A stretch of DNA of 39,118 nucleotides from the sequence record PQ356293.1; one strand, given 5' to 3'. The notes under the pieces were generated by a model. The model saw only the letters and a list, made by a program, of their open reading frames with translations, searched no databases and was not told the origin of the DNA. A program made the translations under genes and the position numbers. Of this stretch, positions 1,300 to 34,586 are shown piece by piece. How positions within the stretch are numbered: position 1 is the first letter of the stretch; every line of letters begins with the position of its first letter. This DNA is from Escherichia phage KKE5P.

Positions 1300-1605
1300 T
1301 TATTTCTTGACAAGTTTACGTTCTCTGTTTGTCTTAACAACATGGTCCCGCTTCGGTATACACTGTAGGTGCTCCACGTTGCAGCACCCTCTATTTAGGC
1401 ATAGATGGTCTATCTCGTAACCATCTGGTATAGGTCCTCGGTGTTGCTCCCACACCCATCGGTGGAACATGAAGTTCTTCTTCTCACCTTTACGAGAAGA
1501 CCCTACGCTGTACCGGAAGTATCCATCTTGGTTTCTCTTATGGGAAACGCATACGATACATCCGGTAGGCATCTTGTGAAACCGTAATGTAGCAACGCCT
1601 CCCAT
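1300..1605 (-). CDS. 5.3: gp5.3-position HNH-motif protein, about 101 aa
   Basis: GGAGGT SD then ATG at 1603..1605 just after gene 5 stop; HNH-like motif DGYEIDHLCLNRGCCNVEHL. Confidence 0.7.
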   Translation of the reverse strand: MGGVATLRFHKMPTGCIVCVSHKRNQDGYFRYSVGSSRKGEKKNFMFHRWVWEQHRGPIPDGYEIDHLCLNRGCCNVEHLQCIPKRDHVVKTNRERKLVKK

Positions 1606-20973: not shown

Positions 20974-22851
20974 TTACGTTTGTGGGTAGTCACACACTAC
21001 GTCAATATAGTTGATTGCCTGTACTCCAGAACCTGTAGCCGCTACTAGTTTAACTTGATTCGCCGCAGGGAACTCTAAGGTGTACGACCAGTTAGCTAGA
21101 GTGATGTGCATTCGGTCAGCAGTGTTTGGCTGGAGGAACGGGCTACAACGGTATACCTGAGAGTTGGGGTTTTGGCTATCGGTGTGTGCGCCAATTACTA
21201 GCATCTTGTTGAGAATATCCTCAGAGCAAGTCACTGTTCTTCCAGTCGCAAGTTGTCCTTGAGACGTGCGGTCGCTAAACACTCGGCGAAGGAACTTCTG
21301 TCCAGACTTCTCGAGGTTCTCATTAGTAACCATACGTGTAAGTAGTTCGGTATAAACCTGCTCGACGCGAGAAGCCAACACAGCGGCATCCACTGAACCC
21401 GGATTGTTGACAACACCGTGAGTCCTGATAACCCAGACAATCACGATGCCATTCATACGGGCTTCATTAATGTCCTTCTTGTAGACGTCGTTCCACAGTG
21501 ACGCGTCGAAACCTAACTGAGCACCACCGGTATCGTTAGTTGCACCTTTGTTGGAGCGCCCAGCGTTGTAGAATGCACCAGAGGCACTGGAGGCCAGCTC
21601 ATTATCGGCAAGTGTAATCAGACCCTCAATGTTTGGTAGAGCTGACTTCTGAACGTCACCTACAGTAAACCCAGCGTCACCACGGAACACAGGAGCCTTA
21701 ATGGAACCCGCATAGACACCGTTTAGGTCTGGTACACGGAAAGTGGTCGTACCGTTACCTAAGGTATAGCAACCACGTTTACCGGGGTCAGCAAGCCATA
21801 CGTCGTCAGAGACAACCGGGAGGTGCCCTGCCAGTAACTCAGCGACTAGTGCAGGGAACTGGTTGCGGTTCAATAGTTGCCCGTCACCGTATACTGTACC
21901 CGGCTTAGCGTAAGTACGAGAGTTGTGAATCTCAAACTCACCAACCTGACGTACGGCCACGCCGTTAATCCGGTCAACCAGAGTGTTAAACTGAATTAGC
22001 TTATCGGATTCAGTCTTTGCACTACTTGCAGATGTCGCAGCGTTGCTCTCAGATACAGCGGCCTGTTGAGCAGACGTGTTGGCTGCATCGCGGTAACCCA
22101 GAGCATCATTGGCGTAATCACCAGCACGGTCAGCCTGTGCCTTAGCGTTCGCTACTTGTGCCTGAGAGTTACCCGCAGAGATTGCAGACGCATTAGCGCT
22201 TTCCTCAGAGGTCAACGCCCAATGCTTAGCGGAATACTGATTGGGGACCACGGGTGTACCTTTAGGGTTCTCAGCCCACTTCTTCGCCAACTGCTCGGAA
22301 GCCTTTGAGTTTGTCTCAGAGGTCTTAGCGTTATTCTCAGAAGTCTTCGCTTTGTTCGCACTATCGGCGGCACTACCAGACCAGCGATTCATCTGACCAA
22401 CCGTAACAGCGTCACCGGGGTCAATGCCATCCGCTACATTCACCACACGTCTACCACGCGCATCTAGATGACCATCGTTGTTTACACCTATAGTGTCAGA
22501 CGTTAAATCTCGCGCCTCTTCTGCCACATGCATAGTCTGAATCTGGGCCACGTTAAGGTCATACGCACGGAGGATAGAGCCATCTGTAAAGTCAACCAAT
22601 CGGTCGGTAGTGGATGTAACCCGCCGTACCTCGATGGTTTCATAGCTATCAGCCGGACCCCAAGCCTTAGTTAGGGATATGGTTGTTCGAGTAGCGAATC
22701 GGTAGTCTGCATTGATGGTAAGCACTTTACGGTCCTTACCAATAAGAGTTACCACTACGAACTTACGGGCCAGATACTCAAACGGGATATTAAAATCACG
22801 AGTTGAGCCATCTAACGGGTAAGTCAAAACGGTCTTAATTACGTTAGCCAT
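20974..22851 (-). CDS. 17: Tail fibre gp17, 625 aa (T7-like N-terminal domain, divergent shaft and distal domain)
   Basis: N-terminus MANVIKTVLTYPLDGSTRDFNIPFEYLARKFVVVTLIG... matches T7 gp17; beyond about residue 165 it differs from T7 as recalled. Confidence 0.9.
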   Translation of the reverse strand: MANVIKTVLTYPLDGSTRDFNIPFEYLARKFVVVTLIGKDRKVLTINADYRFATRTTISLTKAWGPADSYETIEVRRVTSTTDRLVDFTDGSILRAYDLNVAQIQTMHVAEEARDLTSDTIGVNNDGHLDARGRRVVNVADGIDPGDAVTVGQMNRWSGSAADSANKAKTSENNAKTSETNSKASEQLAKKWAENPKGTPVVPNQYSAKHWALTSEESANASAISAGNSQAQVANAKAQADRAGDYANDALGYRDAANTSAQQAAVSESNAATSASSAKTESDKLIQFNTLVDRINGVAVRQVGEFEIHNSRTYAKPGTVYGDGQLLNRNQFPALVAELLAGHLPVVSDDVWLADPGKRGCYTLGNGTTTFRVPDLNGVYAGSIKAPVFRGDAGFTVGDVQKSALPNIEGLITLADNELASSASGAFYNAGRSNKGATNDTGGAQLGFDASLWNDVYKKDINEARMNGIVIVWVIRTHGVVNNPGSVDAAVLASRVEQVYTELLTRMVTNENLEKSGQKFLRRVFSDRTSQGQLATGRTVTCSEDILNKMLVIGAHTDSQNPNSQVYRCSPFLQPNTADRMHITLANWSYTLEFPAANQVKLVAATGSGVQAINYIDVVCDYPQT

Positions 22852-30247: not shown

Positions 30248-32635
30248 TTAAATACCGGAACTTCTCCGTAAGTAGTTACCTTCCCAGCCACATCCAATGA
30301 TGTTCAGCGGGGTAGTCTCATCAGACAAGACGGACACTGTATTGTACTTGGCGTTACCAACCACAGGGAATCGGTATTGTCCGGTCCCTAAGTTCAATCG
30401 CCCAGCCCTCAGAGTGTTAGAGCCTAAGCGAGCACCAGCCATTGTGTACTTCCAGTTGGACGATTGGTTCTCAACATAAATAGTGAACGCCCCAGAGTTC
30501 TCATAGTTCACCCACGCTCGGCGTAACTGCAAGCGCCCAATGTCTTCCGTGGAGGTAGACCCATCGTCGGCAGTTTGCTTGATGAGGAACTTAGAGAACT
30601 CGTAGACGAAGTTGATGTTGAATCCAATGTACACCATTCGACCCTCCAAGTTACCGTCGAGTCTCAACCAAGGGTCGCTTTGCCACCCATCCGAAGGTTG
30701 CTCAAATACAGTTATCTTGCCGTCAGGCTCCAGTACAGTGATTTTACCCCTCCCGAAGTTTGCACCATCATAGATTGTTGGTAGGTGAACCGAGGTAGTG
30801 AAGGTGTCATCGTTGTATGTTCCACTGGGAATCGTATAGCGAATCTTCATGTCCATAAAGGCACGATACGGTTCGCCTTGTAAGTCAATGGCGTTCTTAG
30901 TGAAAGAGACTTTAGCTAGGAACGTATTGAACTCATTGCGCAGAATCACATACATGTCCGAGTTGATACTCTGGCAAGCTAGAACCTGCACGTTTTCCCC
31001 AAAGTCCCAATGAGACCACGACTGTTGTCTTAACTCTTCGTTCAGATACAGGAATTTGTACATGAAGATTTTACTAGGGTCCCCGTGAGATAGTACAGAA
31101 CAGAAGTTTTCCGTACCACTACCGCAAATACTAAACACACCATTTGGGATGTAGTTAGGAACGTGTGCTGTGATGTCCTCCGCGTTCTTAACGGAACTGA
31201 CATCCTGCACAGCGTAGTATCTGTGGATGGACGTGTAGCTGGACCTCGGACTAGCAAAGTAGACATTACGCCCGATACCATAAGGTCTCGCTCGGTCCTG
31301 TACGTCAAACTGAGTCGTTAGGTTCAACTCAACCGACTTCGACGTGAGAGTACCAGAAGCGGTCAGGACGAATTGTGCTTCATCGGACCAGATGAGTAAC
31401 TCTTCTGAGAACGGAACGGCGTACTTGAGGACTGCTATTCGGTTGGTACTCACAGCTACGTCTATAGGGTCGTCATCACTAAGGTTCGCAACGGACGCAG
31501 GGTAGAAGTTGAAGTATTTGGCTGTACGACTCAATACGATGTTCTCCCCACTAAGGAATCCTAAGCGGTTACGGAAGAAGAACACATCGTTAATACTTGA
31601 GTCAACAAAAGAAGGCCAAGGGTTGGTGTCAGTGTCACCACAAGACTTAGGAGACCACTCAAGCCACTTGAAGTCGAAATTACCGTCAGAGGCTCGCACA
31701 AGAGCGTGTGGCATAGTTTCCCATAGGACTTGGCTATCAGTGTTCCAACCCAAAGTCTCAGCCCAAACTTTCCTCTCAGCGTCATACTTAACATAATACT
31801 GGTCGGCAGACCTAGAGGCGTCCCCTACGATTTTCACCATGTAGCCGTTAGGGGCATTAGGTGGCAACTTAGAGAACGACTGAGCGTAGTGGGTCACAGG
31901 GTTAATCAACTGGTCTGCGTATCCATCTTTAGTCGTGAAGGAGTCAATCTGTTGACCACTAGGTGCGGTAACGTGTATGAACCCTTGCCCCACAGCTACA
32001 TCCCATCCAGACAAGTTAGTTCGCATCTTCTTGGCTAACTCTTCGGCTAACCACTGGGCATCCGTATTGTTCACGTGTGCCGGTTGACTACCATCTGGGA
32101 TTTTATACTTCGCAACATCTTTACCGTTAATGTGTACAATTAGTTCCCTACCATACTGACCACCACGAACGTTAATCAACCCGTCTTGCTTAGGGTTGTA
32201 ATTCGGTAAGTTGACAGACGTTGTGTCCTTCTGTACAACAACGTTGCGGTTAACGATGAACGTATAATCTGCTACAGTAACCATTCGCAGGTCGCTACGT
32301 GGGTTAGCGGTCTTGATGTAGTCGGAACCGTTAGGATACCTAACTTGCTTCTCGTTCCCAGCGAGGTCGAACACTCGGATATCACTACCAGTGAACACAG
32401 CATAATACTGCTCGCTTTCATCACGATTAATCAGGTGGATGTACGGAGCTTGGCCTAACGCATCACTGTCTCCAAGTGTCTTAAGGAAAACCATTGGTGG
32501 ACGCTTTTGGAGGCCCTCGGTCTCCGAAGACCAACCGTTAACTTGGCGTGACCCTTGGTCTGGATAACGAAGGATGTCAGGCTGTTGGCTGATACCACCC
32601 TTCAAGTTCTTGATTGATTGGCTAATGAGTGCCAT
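30248..32635 (-). CDS. 12: Tail tubular protein B gp12, 795 aa
   Basis: MALISQSIKNLKGGISQQPDILRYPDQGSRQVNGWSSETEGLQKRPP... Confidence 0.97.
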   Translation of the reverse strand: MALISQSIKNLKGGISQQPDILRYPDQGSRQVNGWSSETEGLQKRPPMVFLKTLGDSDALGQAPYIHLINRDESEQYYAVFTGSDIRVFDLAGNEKQVRYPNGSDYIKTANPRSDLRMVTVADYTFIVNRNVVVQKDTTSVNLPNYNPKQDGLINVRGGQYGRELIVHINGKDVAKYKIPDGSQPAHVNNTDAQWLAEELAKKMRTNLSGWDVAVGQGFIHVTAPSGQQIDSFTTKDGYADQLINPVTHYAQSFSKLPPNAPNGYMVKIVGDASRSADQYYVKYDAERKVWAETLGWNTDSQVLWETMPHALVRASDGNFDFKWLEWSPKSCGDTDTNPWPSFVDSSINDVFFFRNRLGFLSGENIVLSRTAKYFNFYPASVANLSDDDPIDVAVSTNRIAVLKYAVPFSEELLIWSDEAQFVLTASGTLTSKSVELNLTTQFDVQDRARPYGIGRNVYFASPRSSYTSIHRYYAVQDVSSVKNAEDITAHVPNYIPNGVFSICGSGTENFCSVLSHGDPSKIFMYKFLYLNEELRQQSWSHWDFGENVQVLACQSINSDMYVILRNEFNTFLAKVSFTKNAIDLQGEPYRAFMDMKIRYTIPSGTYNDDTFTTSVHLPTIYDGANFGRGKITVLEPDGKITVFEQPSDGWQSDPWLRLDGNLEGRMVYIGFNINFVYEFSKFLIKQTADDGSTSTEDIGRLQLRRAWVNYENSGAFTIYVENQSSNWKYTMAGARLGSNTLRAGRLNLGTGQYRFPVVGNAKYNTVSVLSDETTPLNIIGCGWEGNYLRRSSGI

Positions 32636-32658: not shown

Positions 32659-33249
32659 TTAGCGAGTCAGTAGACCAGAAGTGAACGCATCGCCATCCAG
32701 CATATTGTACCCACCGTAGTCCACTTCGTACTCCATGCAGAGACGTCGAGCCTCATCTTCCTCTTCTTGGAGTACACCCTCTACTTCTGGTGCCCCAAAG
32801 AATCGGTTGTTGAACTGACGGGAAGCCTTAGTGACAATCCAGTAACGGAAGCACTCAGGCATCTCGTCGTAGTCTCGGAGACGAATAATGTTCACGGTAA
32901 TACCCGACTCAAAGCGGTCTGATTGACTCGTTCGGTCATACACATAGCCACCTCGGTTAACGTAGATGGATTGACCGGAAGTAGCCATTAGTGATAAATA
33001 ATCATCACTGTATACAATCAGGTTGGAGTAAACATCAGGCAATAGCGTTACGCCTTCCTCAATGTTGAACGTCCACCCACGAGACTGAATCTGTCTGTTA
33101 ATCTTGTTGAGAATACGACGAGCGTTCGCTACATCCGCGTTAGCATCACCTTCCAGCGTTGATACCGGAGGTTCTCCGATAGATGCCAGAATGTCGTTCA
33201 CAGCGGATAACTCAGCGGCAGTCTCAACGTTCATATCGTATGAGCGCAT
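32659..33249 (-). CDS. 11: Tail tubular protein A gp11, 196 aa
   Basis: [66 protein letters not shown]... Confidence 0.95.
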
Positions 33250-33264
33250 ATAGTTCCTCCTTTA

Positions 33265-33315
33265 AGCAAAAAAACCCCTCAAGACCCGTTTAGAGGCCCC
33301 AAGGGGTTATGCTAG
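33265..33315 (-). terminator. T7-RNAP late terminator Tphi
   Basis: Phage-sense ctagcataaccccttggggcctctaaacgggtcttgaggggttttttg. Confidence 0.85.
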
Positions 33316-34505
33316 TTATTGCTCAGCGGCGGCGGCAGCCAACTCAGCTTCCTTTCGGGCTTTGTTAGCAGCGCGTGTGCGTGCGGCCTTCTGTGCTGGC
33401 GTTAAGGTTTCTTCGGTTGAAGTAACACTCACCTCTTCGGGACTAGCAGCGACCGTTGAGGCCACTCCCAGCATTACTCCCCCGCGAAAACCACCGCACC
33501 AGCAGCTTCTGGGCGCAGACCACCGTGGCCCATCGCGTACTTAGCGATAATCTGGTCCGCTTGGAAGTTAGCGCGGCGAGCACGCTCAAGAGCCAAGTCA
33601 CGCAGCTTCACAGTACCTACCGCAGATCGGTGCATGAACAGGCCGATAACGTTGTCCTTAGCAACCTTGTCATTACCACTAGCGGTGGCAGGGAAGGCGT
33701 GCTTCTGGCCCTCCGTATCCTCACGGGTAGTACCAGCGCCACCAGCGGTGAGGTGTGGGACCTCTACAACCTCAAAGCCCATAACGTTGCGGATAGAACC
33801 CTTCTCAGGGTCAATCAGAGCAGCGTAGTTTGCAGCGTTCGGCATCAGTGCTGCCAGAATCGCAGAGTAGCTATCTGGGTCACAGTAGAACACACGGTCA
33901 GCAGCCGGAACGTAGTTCTTGGTCAGGGCAGCGCGAGCCTTGGTCAGAGCCGCGATAATCTCCTTACCCAGAGCTACTTGGTCGGCAATTGCAGCCTTGG
34001 CCTGAGTGGTCTCAATAACAGTGGCAGAGCCTAGACCAGAAATGTTCTCATTAGTGGTGCTCGCCAAGTTGCACAGTCCGGCAATCTCAGCCAGAACCGC
34101 ACCATCAGCAGCCATCGCCAGAGATTCACCTAACTGAGAGGTGTACTCAGAGCGAACGTCGTAGTGGTTCATCGCGTCCTCAATGTCGTAAATCAGAACG
34201 TCAGCCGTCAGGAGACCATCAATGGTGATTACCTTCTCGGTGTGTTTGATGTCTTTACGTTTATCGTCGAGGTTCTCACCCGGAGCCAGATACGCTGCCT
34301 GAGTACGACCCAGCACAGGGAACTGAGCGGATTTACCACTGGAGATGGAACGAACCATGTGGCGAGAAGTGGTCACAGAGGTACGTGCGAATGCGGTCAG
34401 AACTTCGCCACCGAATACTTTCAGGAACAGCGCCAGTTTGTCGGAACCGCTCGCACCTTTACCTTGGTTAGTACCCAGTTGCTGTCCACCAGTCATGTTA
34501 GCCAT
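33316..34505 (-). CDS. 10B: Minor capsid protein gp10B via -1 frameshift near 33486..33492
   Basis: GGTTTTC about 10 nt before 10A stop; -1 frame continues GVMLGVASTVAASPEEVSV...AAAAAEQ to stop at 33316..33318. Confidence 0.55.
33474..34505 (-). CDS. 10A: Major capsid protein gp10A, 343 aa
   Basis: MANMTGGQQLGTNQGKGASGSDKLALFLKVFGGEVLTAFARTSVTTSRHMVRSISSGKSAQFPVLGRTQAAY... Confidence 0.99.
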   Translation of the reverse strand: MANMTGGQQLGTNQGKGASGSDKLALFLKVFGGEVLTAFARTSVTTSRHMVRSISSGKSAQFPVLGRTQAAYLAPGENLDDKRKDIKHTEKVITIDGLLTADVLIYDIEDAMNHYDVRSEYTSQLGESLAMAADGAVLAEIAGLCNLASTTNENISGLGSATVIETTQAKAAIADQVALGKEIIAALTKARAALTKNYVPAADRVFYCDPDSYSAILAALMPNAANYAALIDPEKGSIRNVMGFEVVEVPHLTAGGAGTTREDTEGQKHAFPATASGNDKVAKDNVIGLFMHRSAVGTVKLRDLALERARRANFQADQIIAKYAMGHGGLRPEAAGAVVFAGE

Positions 34506-34563: not shown

Positions 34564-34586
34564 TCTCCCTATAGTGAGTCGTATTA
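34564..34586 (-). promoter_or_regulatory. T7-RNAP promoter phi10
   Basis: Promoter-sense taatacgactcactatagggaga followed by ccacaacggtttccctctagaaat...aaggagacatacatATG. Confidence 0.9.

What the first reader, a model, noticed from the sequence alone, without database searches (positions are those of the whole stretch)
33478..33495. Conserved -1 frameshift site for capsid 10B
GGTTTTC lies about 10 nt before the 10A stop, and the -1 frame continues for about 52 codons to a stop just inside Tphi. This matches the T7 mechanism for making the minor capsid protein 10B.
Basis: partly seen in the sequence, partly recalled or inferred. Interest (0 to 1): 0.2.

Follow-up and report, generated by a model that had tools for sequence, protein, structure and literature searches.

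The report
T7-type capsid gene frameshift site
This is the well-known slippery spot at the end of a T7-like phage's capsid gene, where a minority of ribosomes slip back one base and make a longer minor capsid protein (10B); it is real here, but ordinary.

Summary
The window is a reverse-complemented, circularly permuted genome of a T7 relative, about 92-93% identical to T7 and IME390. Gene 10A lies at 33474..34505 on the minus strand. G GTT TTC sits at 33492..33486 in the T7 phase, 9 nt before the 10A stop. The -1 frame then stays open for 56 further codons to TAA at 33318..33316, which is 7 nt upstream of the Tphi hairpin, not inside it. Predicted 10B is 396 aa against 343 aa for 10A, the same +53 as in T7.

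The heptamer alone is not enriched. The combination is far beyond chance:
- From the heptamer through Tphi, 220/233 nt match T7, and the tail is 51/56 aa identical.
- pN/pS is 0.29 in the -1 frame against 1.1-1.3 in the other two frames.
- An in-phase NGTTTTC with a -1 tail of at least 44 codons occurs in 84 of 94 distinct related loci from several genera.
- Most of those loci have no ATG from which the tail could be made separately.

Frameshifting at this site is published for T7 and, by mass spectrometry, for Kvp1. A strong hairpin is predicted 5 nt downstream of the heptamer, but its role is untested. Verdict: supported, already known, low interest.

The parts
33474..34505 (-). Gene 10A, major capsid protein, 343 aa, zero frame, stop TAA at 33476..33474
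   Evidence: ORF list. Pfam Gp10A-like PF21703, E 3.8e-113, residues 61-339. PDB T7 10A 2xvr, E 7e-202. 318 residues identical to T7 10A.
33486..33492 (-). Shift site G_GUU_UUC (Val339-Phe340 of 10A), non-canonical because GUU re-pairs to GGU with a central mismatch
   Evidence: Sequence and phase. Identical to T7. An in-phase NGTTTTC with a -1 tail of at least 44 codons is found in 84 of 94 distinct related loci. The Val codon is GTT in 83/88 sequences, while most other Val codons vary.
33316..33486 (-). 10B-specific part in the -1 frame: 56 sense codons (RGGVMLGV...AAAAAEQ) plus TAA at 33318..33316; predicted 10B = 340 + 56 = 396 aa
   Evidence: Translation. 51/56 aa identical to the T7 10B tail. 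PHROG 12582, E 4.5e-29. pN/pS 0.29 in this frame against 1.31 and 1.12 in the other two.
33414..33484 (-). Predicted two-tier RNA hairpin starting 5 nt 3' of the heptamer (core 33480..33419); the 10A stop and the TAATG lie in its 5' arm. Candidate local stimulator (inferred).
   Evidence: MFE folds of the window and of T7 give the same architecture. The 75 nt after the heptamer fold to -29.3 kcal/mol, which is in the lowest 1.1% of 277 windows across genes 8-12. In 17 Teseptimavirus sequences 98.5% of cells are paired, but there is no statistically supported covariation.
33268..33308 (-). Tphi, the T7 RNA polymerase terminator: hairpin 33308..33273, U-run 33274..33268; the CCCC at 33306..33303 begins 180 nt 3' of the heptamer
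   Evidence: Terminator scan. Identical to T7 Tphi except for one extra T. The CCCC of the T7 terminator is reported to be involved in gene 10 frameshifting (PMC5009743).
34564..34586 (-). phi10 promoter (perfect T7 class III consensus) driving the gene 10 mRNA
   Evidence: Zero-mismatch match to TAATACGACTCACTATAGGGAGA. Corresponds to phi10 in T7 and 13a.

Best explanation
This is a programmed -1 ribosomal frameshift that makes the minor capsid protein 10B, orthologous to the one in T7 gene 10. Ribosomes translating the phi10 mRNA reach G_GUU_UUC with tRNA-Val on GUU and tRNA-Phe on UUC. A minority slip one base 5' to GGU_UUU, then read CGC (Arg) and 55 more codons in the -1 frame, and stop at TAA 7 nt before the Tphi hairpin. 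The product is a 396-aa protein identical to 10A through Phe340. It carries a 56-aa tail that a low-weight single-sequence model predicts as a flexible Ser/Thr/Glu-rich linker followed by a basic, Ala-rich helix. Non-slipping ribosomes add Ala-Gly-Glu and terminate, giving the 343-aa 10A.

Shown here: the anatomy, the orthology, the coding constraint on the -1 frame, and conservation across genera. Inferred from T7 and Kvp1 literature: that the shift actually occurs, and that it is a minority event (about 10% in T7). Inferred from folding only: that the stable hairpin 5 nt downstream helps pause the ribosome. The reported contribution of the distant Tphi CCCC cannot be assessed here.
For: - Anatomy.
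- Orthology to T7: gene 10 region 91% identical; T7 record annotates 10B as a two-piece join; heptamer through Tphi 220/233 nt identical and tail 51/56 aa identical.
- Coding constraint in close relatives: variable columns by -1-frame codon position are 8/6/15; pN/pS is 0.29 against 1.31 and 1.12 in the other frames.
- Breadth: an in-phase NGTTTTC plus a tail of at least 44 codons in 84 of 94 distinct loci from Teseptimavirus, Berlinvirus, Helsettvirus, Kayfunavirus, Przondovirus and Ningirsuvirus. The heptamer-to-stop distance varies only in steps of 3 (6-18 nt). The motif TP.QKAA occurs in 45 tails.
- No ATG near the 10A stop in 66 of 89 loci, so the tail must be made as a fusion.
- DNA and protein similarity of distant relatives stops exactly at the heptamer and at Phe340.
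- Chance control: only 1.3% of positions have at least 58 open -1 codons.
- Hairpin.
- Literature: about 10% shift in T7 (PMC1635266); 53-aa extension and 10B dispensable (PMC11482910); G_GU-type heptamer and terminator CCCC effect (PMC5009743); MS proof of the shift at TTTTCA in Kvp1 (PMC2579914).
Against: - There are no protein data for this phage.
- The heptamer is non-canonical (GUU to GGU mispairs centrally) and is not enriched in the genome.
- Relatives with A or C as the first base keep intact tails (L018, L032, L031, L011). Tandem re-pairing of the P-site tRNA may therefore not be what matters, and the exact slippage mode is uncertain.
- The three codons after the heptamer differ from T7 (GCG GGG GAG against AAA GTG GAG), so efficiency could differ.
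- The hairpin has no statistically supported covariation in this clade.
- No conserved G-run partner for the Tphi CCCC was seen across relatives (sequences).
- 10B is dispensable in T7, and one relative (L085) has a premature stop in the tail.
Confidence: 0.9

Rival explanations
1. The 52-codon ORF (33474..33316, -) is a separate small gene. It would be translated from the ATG that overlaps the 10A stop (TAATG), by termination-reinitiation or from the GGAG just upstream, giving a free peptide of about 5 kDa rather than a 10A fusion.
For: The ATG is present and overlaps the stop, and GGGGGAG lies just 5' of it. Many GenBank records annotate exactly this ORF as a separate 'head protein' or 'capsid and scaffold protein'. 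PHROG 12582 is built from such 52-aa entries.
Against: The ATG is missing in 66 of 89 relatives that keep the tail, including the Teseptimavirus L005, which reads TAACA. Conservation of the tail starts at the heptamer, not at the ATG. The GGAG is only 2 nt from the ATG, which by general knowledge is too close for a normal Shine-Dalgarno. T7 and Kvp1 make the fused protein (PMC1635266, PMC2579914). A low level of reinitiation in addition to frameshifting is not excluded.
Confidence: 0.04
2. The open -1 frame and the heptamer are inherited sequence with no present function in this phage. Any shifted product would be noise.
For: The heptamer is not enriched. 10B is dispensable for T7 growth in the laboratory (PMC11482910). 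One relative carries a premature stop in the tail (L085).
Against: pN/pS is 0.29 in the -1 frame only. The tail stays open in 84 of 94 distinct loci across genera. The GTT codon is kept. Only 1.3% of positions have such a long open -1 frame.
Confidence: 0.03
3. The longer protein arises from transcriptional slippage of the phage RNA polymerase on the T4 run, which would give mRNAs with one base fewer, rather than from ribosomal slippage.
For: A run of T is present. Transcriptional slippage produces two-product genes in some phages and bacteria (topic of the review PMC5009743).
Against: By general knowledge, a run of four T is far shorter than the homopolymers that support polymerase slippage. 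The T7 shift is treated as ribosomal in the literature (PMC5009743). T3-type relatives use C_CCA_AAG, a classical ribosomal tandem-slippage heptamer, at the same place.
Confidence: 0.02

Closest known systems
Bacteriophage T7 gene 10A/10B -1 programmed ribosomal frameshift (Dunn & Studier 1983; Condron, Atkins & Gesteland 1991, cited via PMC1635266 and PMC5009743)
   Same: Same heptamer G_GUU_UUC, same phase and same 9-nt distance to the 10A stop. The 10A stop overlaps an ATG as TAATG in both. The tail adds 53 residues over 10A in both. The tail is 51/56 aa identical, and the 10B stop sits directly before an essentially identical Tphi.
   Different: The three zero-frame codons after the heptamer are GCG GGG GAG here (10A ends ...VVFAGE) and AAA GTG GAG in T7 (...VVFKVE). 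10B is 396 aa here and 398 aa in T7, because 10A is 2 aa shorter. Tphi has one extra T. There is no experimental evidence for this phage.
Kluyvera phage Kvp1 gene 10 frameshift (PMC2579914)
   Same: [quoted passage not shown] The Berlinvirus-type loci here share the heptamer and the ...LTPQQKAARTRAANKA... motif. It gives MS evidence that this heptamer works outside T7.
   Different: Different genus. The linker part of the tail is unrelated, and the downstream hairpin has a different sequence.
T3 / phiYeO3-12 type gene 10 frameshift
   Same: A -1 shift a few codons before the end of the orthologous capsid gene yields a minor capsid protein (PMC5009743, PMC2579914).
   Different: The shift site is the canonical C_CCA_AAG at a Lys codon. 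The tail is an Ig-like Big_2 domain of 86-96 aa (Pfam E 1.3e-15). The window has neither.
E. coli dnaX -1 frameshift (mechanistic analogue only)
   Same: A bacterial-ribosome -1 shift on a heptamer followed after a short spacer by a stable hairpin (general knowledge; dnaX hairpin cited in PMC1635266 and PMC5009743). The window has a predicted strong hairpin 5 nt after the heptamer.
   Different: dnaX uses A_AAA_AAG with an upstream Shine-Dalgarno stimulator and shifts at about 50% into a quick stop. Here the heptamer is weaker, no upstream stimulator was identified, and the shift extends the protein.

Membership tests
T7-type gene 10A/10B -1 programmed frameshift | Host gene is the T7-type (Gp10A-like, HK97-fold) major capsid protein gene under a late T7 promoter | tested here: met
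   Pfam PF21703, E 3.8e-113. PDB 2xvr T7 10A, E 7e-202. Perfect phi10 promoter at 34586..34564.
T7-type gene 10A/10B -1 programmed frameshift | Heptamer G_GUU_UUC in that phase, a few codons before the 10A stop | tested here: met
   33492..33486 (-); the first G is a third codon position; 9 nt to TAA. Identical to T7.
T7-type gene 10A/10B -1 programmed frameshift | The -1 frame is open from the heptamer to just before the Tphi terminator, adding about 53 residues | tested here: met
   56 new codons; stop at 33318..33316; hairpin from 33308. 10B is 396 aa and 10A is 343 aa.
T7-type gene 10A/10B -1 programmed frameshift | Tail homologous to the T7 10B tail and under purifying selection in the -1 frame | tested here: met
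   51/56 identical to T7. PHROG 12582, E 4.5e-29. pN/pS 0.29 against 1.31 and 1.12.
T7-type gene 10A/10B -1 programmed frameshift | Distal 3' element: terminator hairpin with CCCC in its 5' arm, reported to be involved in T7 frameshifting | tested here: met
   The sequence is present and identical: CCCC at 33306..33303, beginning 180 nt 3' of the heptamer. Its function is not testable here. The T7 claim is taken from PMC5009743.
T7-type gene 10A/10B -1 programmed frameshift | A fused 10A-tail protein is actually made, as a minority product (about 10% in T7), and enters the capsid | not testable with these tools
   Needs SDS-PAGE and MS of virions. Evidence exists only for T7 (PMC1635266) and Kvp1 (PMC2579914).
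Canonical tandem-slippage site X_XXY_YYZ | Both P-site and A-site tRNAs can re-pair at their first two anticodon positions after a -1 shift | tested here: not met
   A scan for X_XXY_YYZ in the last 120 nt of 10A found none in the window. GUU to GGU mispairs at the middle base. The same holds in T7, which the review lists as an intermediate 'G_GU' type (PMC5009743).
T3-type gene 10 frameshift with Ig-like tail | C_CCA_AAG site and a Big_2 Ig-like extension | tested here: not met
   No CCCAAAG at the end of 10A. The tail gives no Pfam hit, whereas the T3-type tail hits Big_2.
Hairpin-stimulated bacterial -1 frameshift | A stable, evolutionarily supported stem-loop 5-8 nt 3' of the slippery site | tested here: inconclusive
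   A stable hairpin with a 5-nt spacer is predicted in the window, in T7 and in most clades. In the window's clade 98.5% of cells pair, but shuffles do as well. Compensatory changes occur at two pairs, but only in the Przondovirus clade.

The most novel reading that the evidence does not exclude
The frameshift stimulator in T7-like phages may be, at least in part, a local two-tier hairpin that starts 5 nt after the heptamer and contains the 10A stop codon. That would differ from relying only on the puzzling distant CCCC of the terminator, which reviews still list as unexplained. Hairpins with this spacing and unrelated sequences are predicted in Teseptimavirus, Berlinvirus, Helsettvirus and Przondovirus. 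One clade shows compensatory changes that even alter the encoded amino acids. Shift-site types (G_GUU_UUC, C_CCA_AAG, A_AAG-type) and tail types (basic helix, Big_2, a 98-aa domain) appear to be mixed and matched across the subfamily.
Probability: 0.35. Interest if true: 0.3.

Novelty: already known. Interest (0 to 1): 0.1.

Why it matters
For this genome it is mainly an annotation point. Gene 10 should be annotated with a second, joined CDS (10B, 396 aa), and not with a free-standing 52-codon 'head protein' gene as many database records of relatives do. For phage display or engineering of this phage, the 10B tail marks the place where capsid fusions are tolerated in T7. The comparative by-product is that the site, and a hairpin 5 nt after it, are conserved across several genera of Studiervirinae. 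That could help settle the stimulator question left open for T7, but it adds nothing surprising about the window itself.

Tried and rejected
- Heptamer frequency as evidence: rejected, with 3 copies found against 4.7 expected.
- Rfam: no family hit on the whole window at gathering thresholds, and none on 33200..33600 at E up to 1.
- Covariation test of the local hairpin in 17 Teseptimavirus sequences: fully compatible but not better than shuffles, because all changes pass through G-U pairs. It is not counted as proof.
- Search by eye for a conserved G-run near the shift site that could pair with the terminator CCCC: present in the window, T7, 13a and some others, but absent in L005, L019/L020, L022 and L029. 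Dropped.
- Phe codon choice (TTC in all sequences) as evidence: rejected, because another Phe codon in the gene is also always TTC.
- The primary T7 papers (PMC209055, PMC328964) are not held. Statements about T7 rest on papers that cite them.
- The single-sequence AlphaFold model of the 52-aa tail (coil 1-25, helix 26-51, mean pLDDT 78.5) is low-weight, and no fold search was attempted.
- Solved structures contain only 10A-length chains, so the tail has no structural precedent to compare with.

Full report
**What is there.** The finding's coordinates lie at the 3' end of a 343-codon ORF on the minus strand, 33474..34505. Read on that strand, the sequence is ...GCG GTG GTT TTC GCG GGG GAG TAA TGC TGG.... 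The heptamer G GTT TTC occupies 33492..33486. Its first G is the third base of a codon, so the phase is G_GUU_UUC. Nine nucleotides separate it from the stop TAA at 33476..33474.

Starting at GGT, the -1 frame reads GFRGGVMLGVASTVAASPEEVSVTSTEETLTPAQKAARTRAANKARKEAELAAAAAEQ and stops at TAA 33318..33316. A slip after Phe340 would therefore add 56 residues and give a 396-aa protein, against 343 aa for the zero-frame product. The difference is +53.

An intrinsic-terminator-like hairpin lies at 33308..33273 and is followed by seven T. The next gene starts at 33249. The -1 stop is 7 nt upstream of the hairpin, not inside it. The '52 codons' is the count from the 10A stop, not from the slip site.

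**Identity of the genome.** The ORF is a T7-type major capsid protein: Pfam Gp10A-like E 3.8e-113 and PDB T7 10A E 7e-202. The gene 10 region is 96% identical to 'Enterococcus phage EFA-2' and 91% identical to T7. Twenty-five kilobases of the window match IME390 at 93% and T7 at 92% over about 90% of their length. Ten T7-type promoters, all on the minus strand, include a perfect phi10 at 34586..34564. Gene order shows that the window is a whole, circularly permuted, reverse-complemented genome of a T7 relative.

**Is it more than chance?** The heptamer alone is not: there are 3 copies against 4.7 expected. A second in-phase copy in gene 12 (32492) is followed by only 3 open -1 codons, which serves as a useful negative control. 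However, only 1.3% of codon positions in this genome's genes have 58 or more open -1 codons, and the median is 6. The whole arrangement is also orthologous to T7. From the heptamer through the terminator, 220 of 233 nt are identical, and the tail is 51/56 aa identical. The T7 reference record annotates 10B as a two-piece join over the same positions.

**Comparative evidence.** I collected 97 related loci from GenBank phages and IMG/VR; with the window, these make 94 distinct sequences.
- In 84 of them an in-phase NGTTTTC is followed by a -1 tail of at least 44 codons. Four use the T3-type C_CCA_AAG, one has a truncated tail, and five were at first scored as lacking a site.
- The distance from the heptamer to the 10A stop varies from 6 to 18 nt, always in steps of three.
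- Nucleotide similarity of distant genera stops at query position 215, the C of the heptamer. Protein similarity stops at residue 340, the Phe.
- Among ten distinct close relatives, variable columns fall 8/6/15 on codon positions 1/2/3 of the -1 frame. pN/pS is 0.29 in that frame against 1.31 and 1.12 in the other two.
- The motif TP.QKAA recurs in 45 tails from Teseptimavirus, Berlinvirus, Helsettvirus, Kayfunavirus and part of Przondovirus.
- The Val codon of the heptamer is GTT in 83 of 88 sequences, whereas most other Val codons in the same stretch vary freely.
- The Phe codon is uninformative, because another Phe codon in the gene is also always TTC.

**Rival: a separate small gene.** The 10A stop overlaps an ATG (TAATG). 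Many database records annotate the 52-codon ORF as its own 'head protein', and PHROG 12582 is that entity. However, 66 of the 89 loci with a tail have no ATG near the 10A stop. That includes L005, a member of the same genus (TAACA). Conservation of the tail begins at the heptamer. The tail therefore has to be made as a fusion. Transcriptional slippage on four T is implausible on general grounds. In addition, the T3-type relatives carry a classical ribosomal heptamer at the same place.

**Literature.**
- In T7 the -1 shift gives 10B in about 10% of translations (PMC1635266).
- The extension is 53 aa, and 10B is dispensable (PMC11482910; PMC5592923).
- The heptamer is listed as a 'G_GU' intermediate between hexanucleotide and full X_XXY_YYZ sites. 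[quoted passage not shown]
- Mass spectrometry showed the shift at TTTTCA in Kvp1 (PMC2579914).
- The T7 tail is not Ig-like whereas the T3 tail is (PMC5009743). This is confirmed here by a Big_2 hit for the T3-type tail and no hit for the window's tail.
- The two primary 1991 papers are not in the held library.

**How it most likely works.** tRNA-Val on GUU and tRNA-Phe on UUC slip to GGU_UUU, and the next codon read is CGC. Relatives with A or C as the first base (L018, L032, L031, L011) keep intact tails. P-site re-pairing may therefore matter little, and slippage of tRNA-Phe on U_UUC may be the essential event. This is inference.

Downstream, both the window and T7 fold into the same two-tier hairpin. 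It has an outer stem GGAGUAAUGC/GUGUUACUUC and an inner stem GUGGCC/GGUCGC, and it begins 5 nt after the heptamer. The 75 nt after the heptamer fold to -29.3 kcal/mol, which is in the lowest 1.1% of 277 windows across genes 8-12.

In 17 Teseptimavirus sequences 98.5% of cells are paired. Two wobble pairs become Watson-Crick from either side (U-G to U-A or C-G). Shuffled controls do equally well, so this is compatibility and not proof.

Other clades have unrelated sequences but again a strong hairpin, mostly with a 5-nt spacer. In the Przondovirus clade with a 98-aa tail, two pairs show compensatory changes (A-U/G-C and C-G/U-A) that also change amino acids. I therefore regard a local hairpin stimulator as plausible but unproven. 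The Tphi CCCC is present here at 33306..33303, but I found no conserved partner for it.

**The tail.** A single-sequence AlphaFold model predicts a coil for residues 1-25 and a helix for residues 26-51, with mean pLDDT 78.5. Solved T7-family capsid structures contain only 10A-length chains. The function of 10B remains unknown.

**Verdict.** This is the textbook T7 10A/10B frameshift in a new T7 relative. It is already known and of low interest. The practical point is that gene 10 should carry a joined 10B CDS rather than a separate 52-codon gene.

Noticed in passing
L016 (Leclercia phage 10164RH), L091 (IMGVR_UViG_3300013307_000032), L017 (Pseudomonas phage Nouni), end of the capsid gene in each: These loci lack GTTTTC but still have a tail in the -1 frame behind an A_AAG-type sequence (GCA AAG, GUA AAG, GAA AAG). 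L016 and L091 carry the T7-type ELTPAQKAA.TRA.NKA tail. Nouni carries an Ig-like tail that is annotated as a separate gene. Shift-site type and tail type seem to be mixed and matched in Studiervirinae.
   Followed up: partly
L014 (Vibrio phage JSF37, ICP3-like) and L010 (Pseudomonas phage PPPL-1), end of the capsid gene: JSF37 has a tail of about 30 aa fused in the zero frame (ending ...APASTRAKRSA), so every subunit would carry it. PPPL-1 has G GTC TTC and no tail at all.
   Followed up: no
L085 (IMGVR_UViG_2700988866_000001), -1 frame after the heptamer: A TAG stops the 10B tail after 21 codons although the downstream tail sequence is still recognisable. This is a natural truncation, in line with 10B being dispensable.
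   Followed up: no
L018 (CICC 80001) and L032: AGTTTTC; L031 and L011: CGTTTTC: The first base of the heptamer is not conserved in these phages, yet the tails are intact. This argues that re-pairing of the P-site tRNA is not required.
   Followed up: partly
Przondovirus-type loci L043-L096, about 27-69 nt after the heptamer (alignment A2): A very stable hairpin lies inside the 98-aa tail coding region. Two of its pairs show compensatory changes (A-U/G-C and C-G/U-A) that also change the encoded residues (T/V/A and S/P).
   Followed up: partly
window 32486..32492 (-), inside gene 12: A second G_GUU_UUC lies in the same phase. The -1 frame closes after 3 codons, so a slip here would only truncate gp12.
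   Followed up: yes
GenBank records of relatives, e.g. L002 (EFA-2) 1347..1505, L004 727..864, L006 727..852: The 10B tail is widely annotated as a free-standing 'head protein', 'capsid and scaffold protein' or 'hypothetical protein' ORF. PHROG 12582 (52 positions) is built from these. This is a systematic annotation artefact.
   Followed up: partly
window 20974..22851 (-), tail fibre gene, 625 aa: Only Escherichia phage P1723 matches the full length (88.5%). Most other Teseptimaviruses match only the first 458 nt. The receptor-binding part is therefore divergent or mosaic.
   Followed up: partly
H1 / L002, MT350293.1 'Enterococcus phage EFA-2': The closest database relative of the gene 10 region (96%) is a T7-like genome recorded with Enterococcus faecalis as host. 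That is unexpected for a Studiervirinae phage carrying T7 promoter and terminator sequences, and it may be a host mislabel or a contaminant.
   Followed up: no
whole window: The window is a complete T7-like genome in reverse complement and circularly permuted: the late genes 19 to 6 and the early genes 1 to 5 are joined around 14.6-18.1 kb. There are ten T7-type promoters, all on the minus strand, and no Rfam hits.
   Followed up: partly
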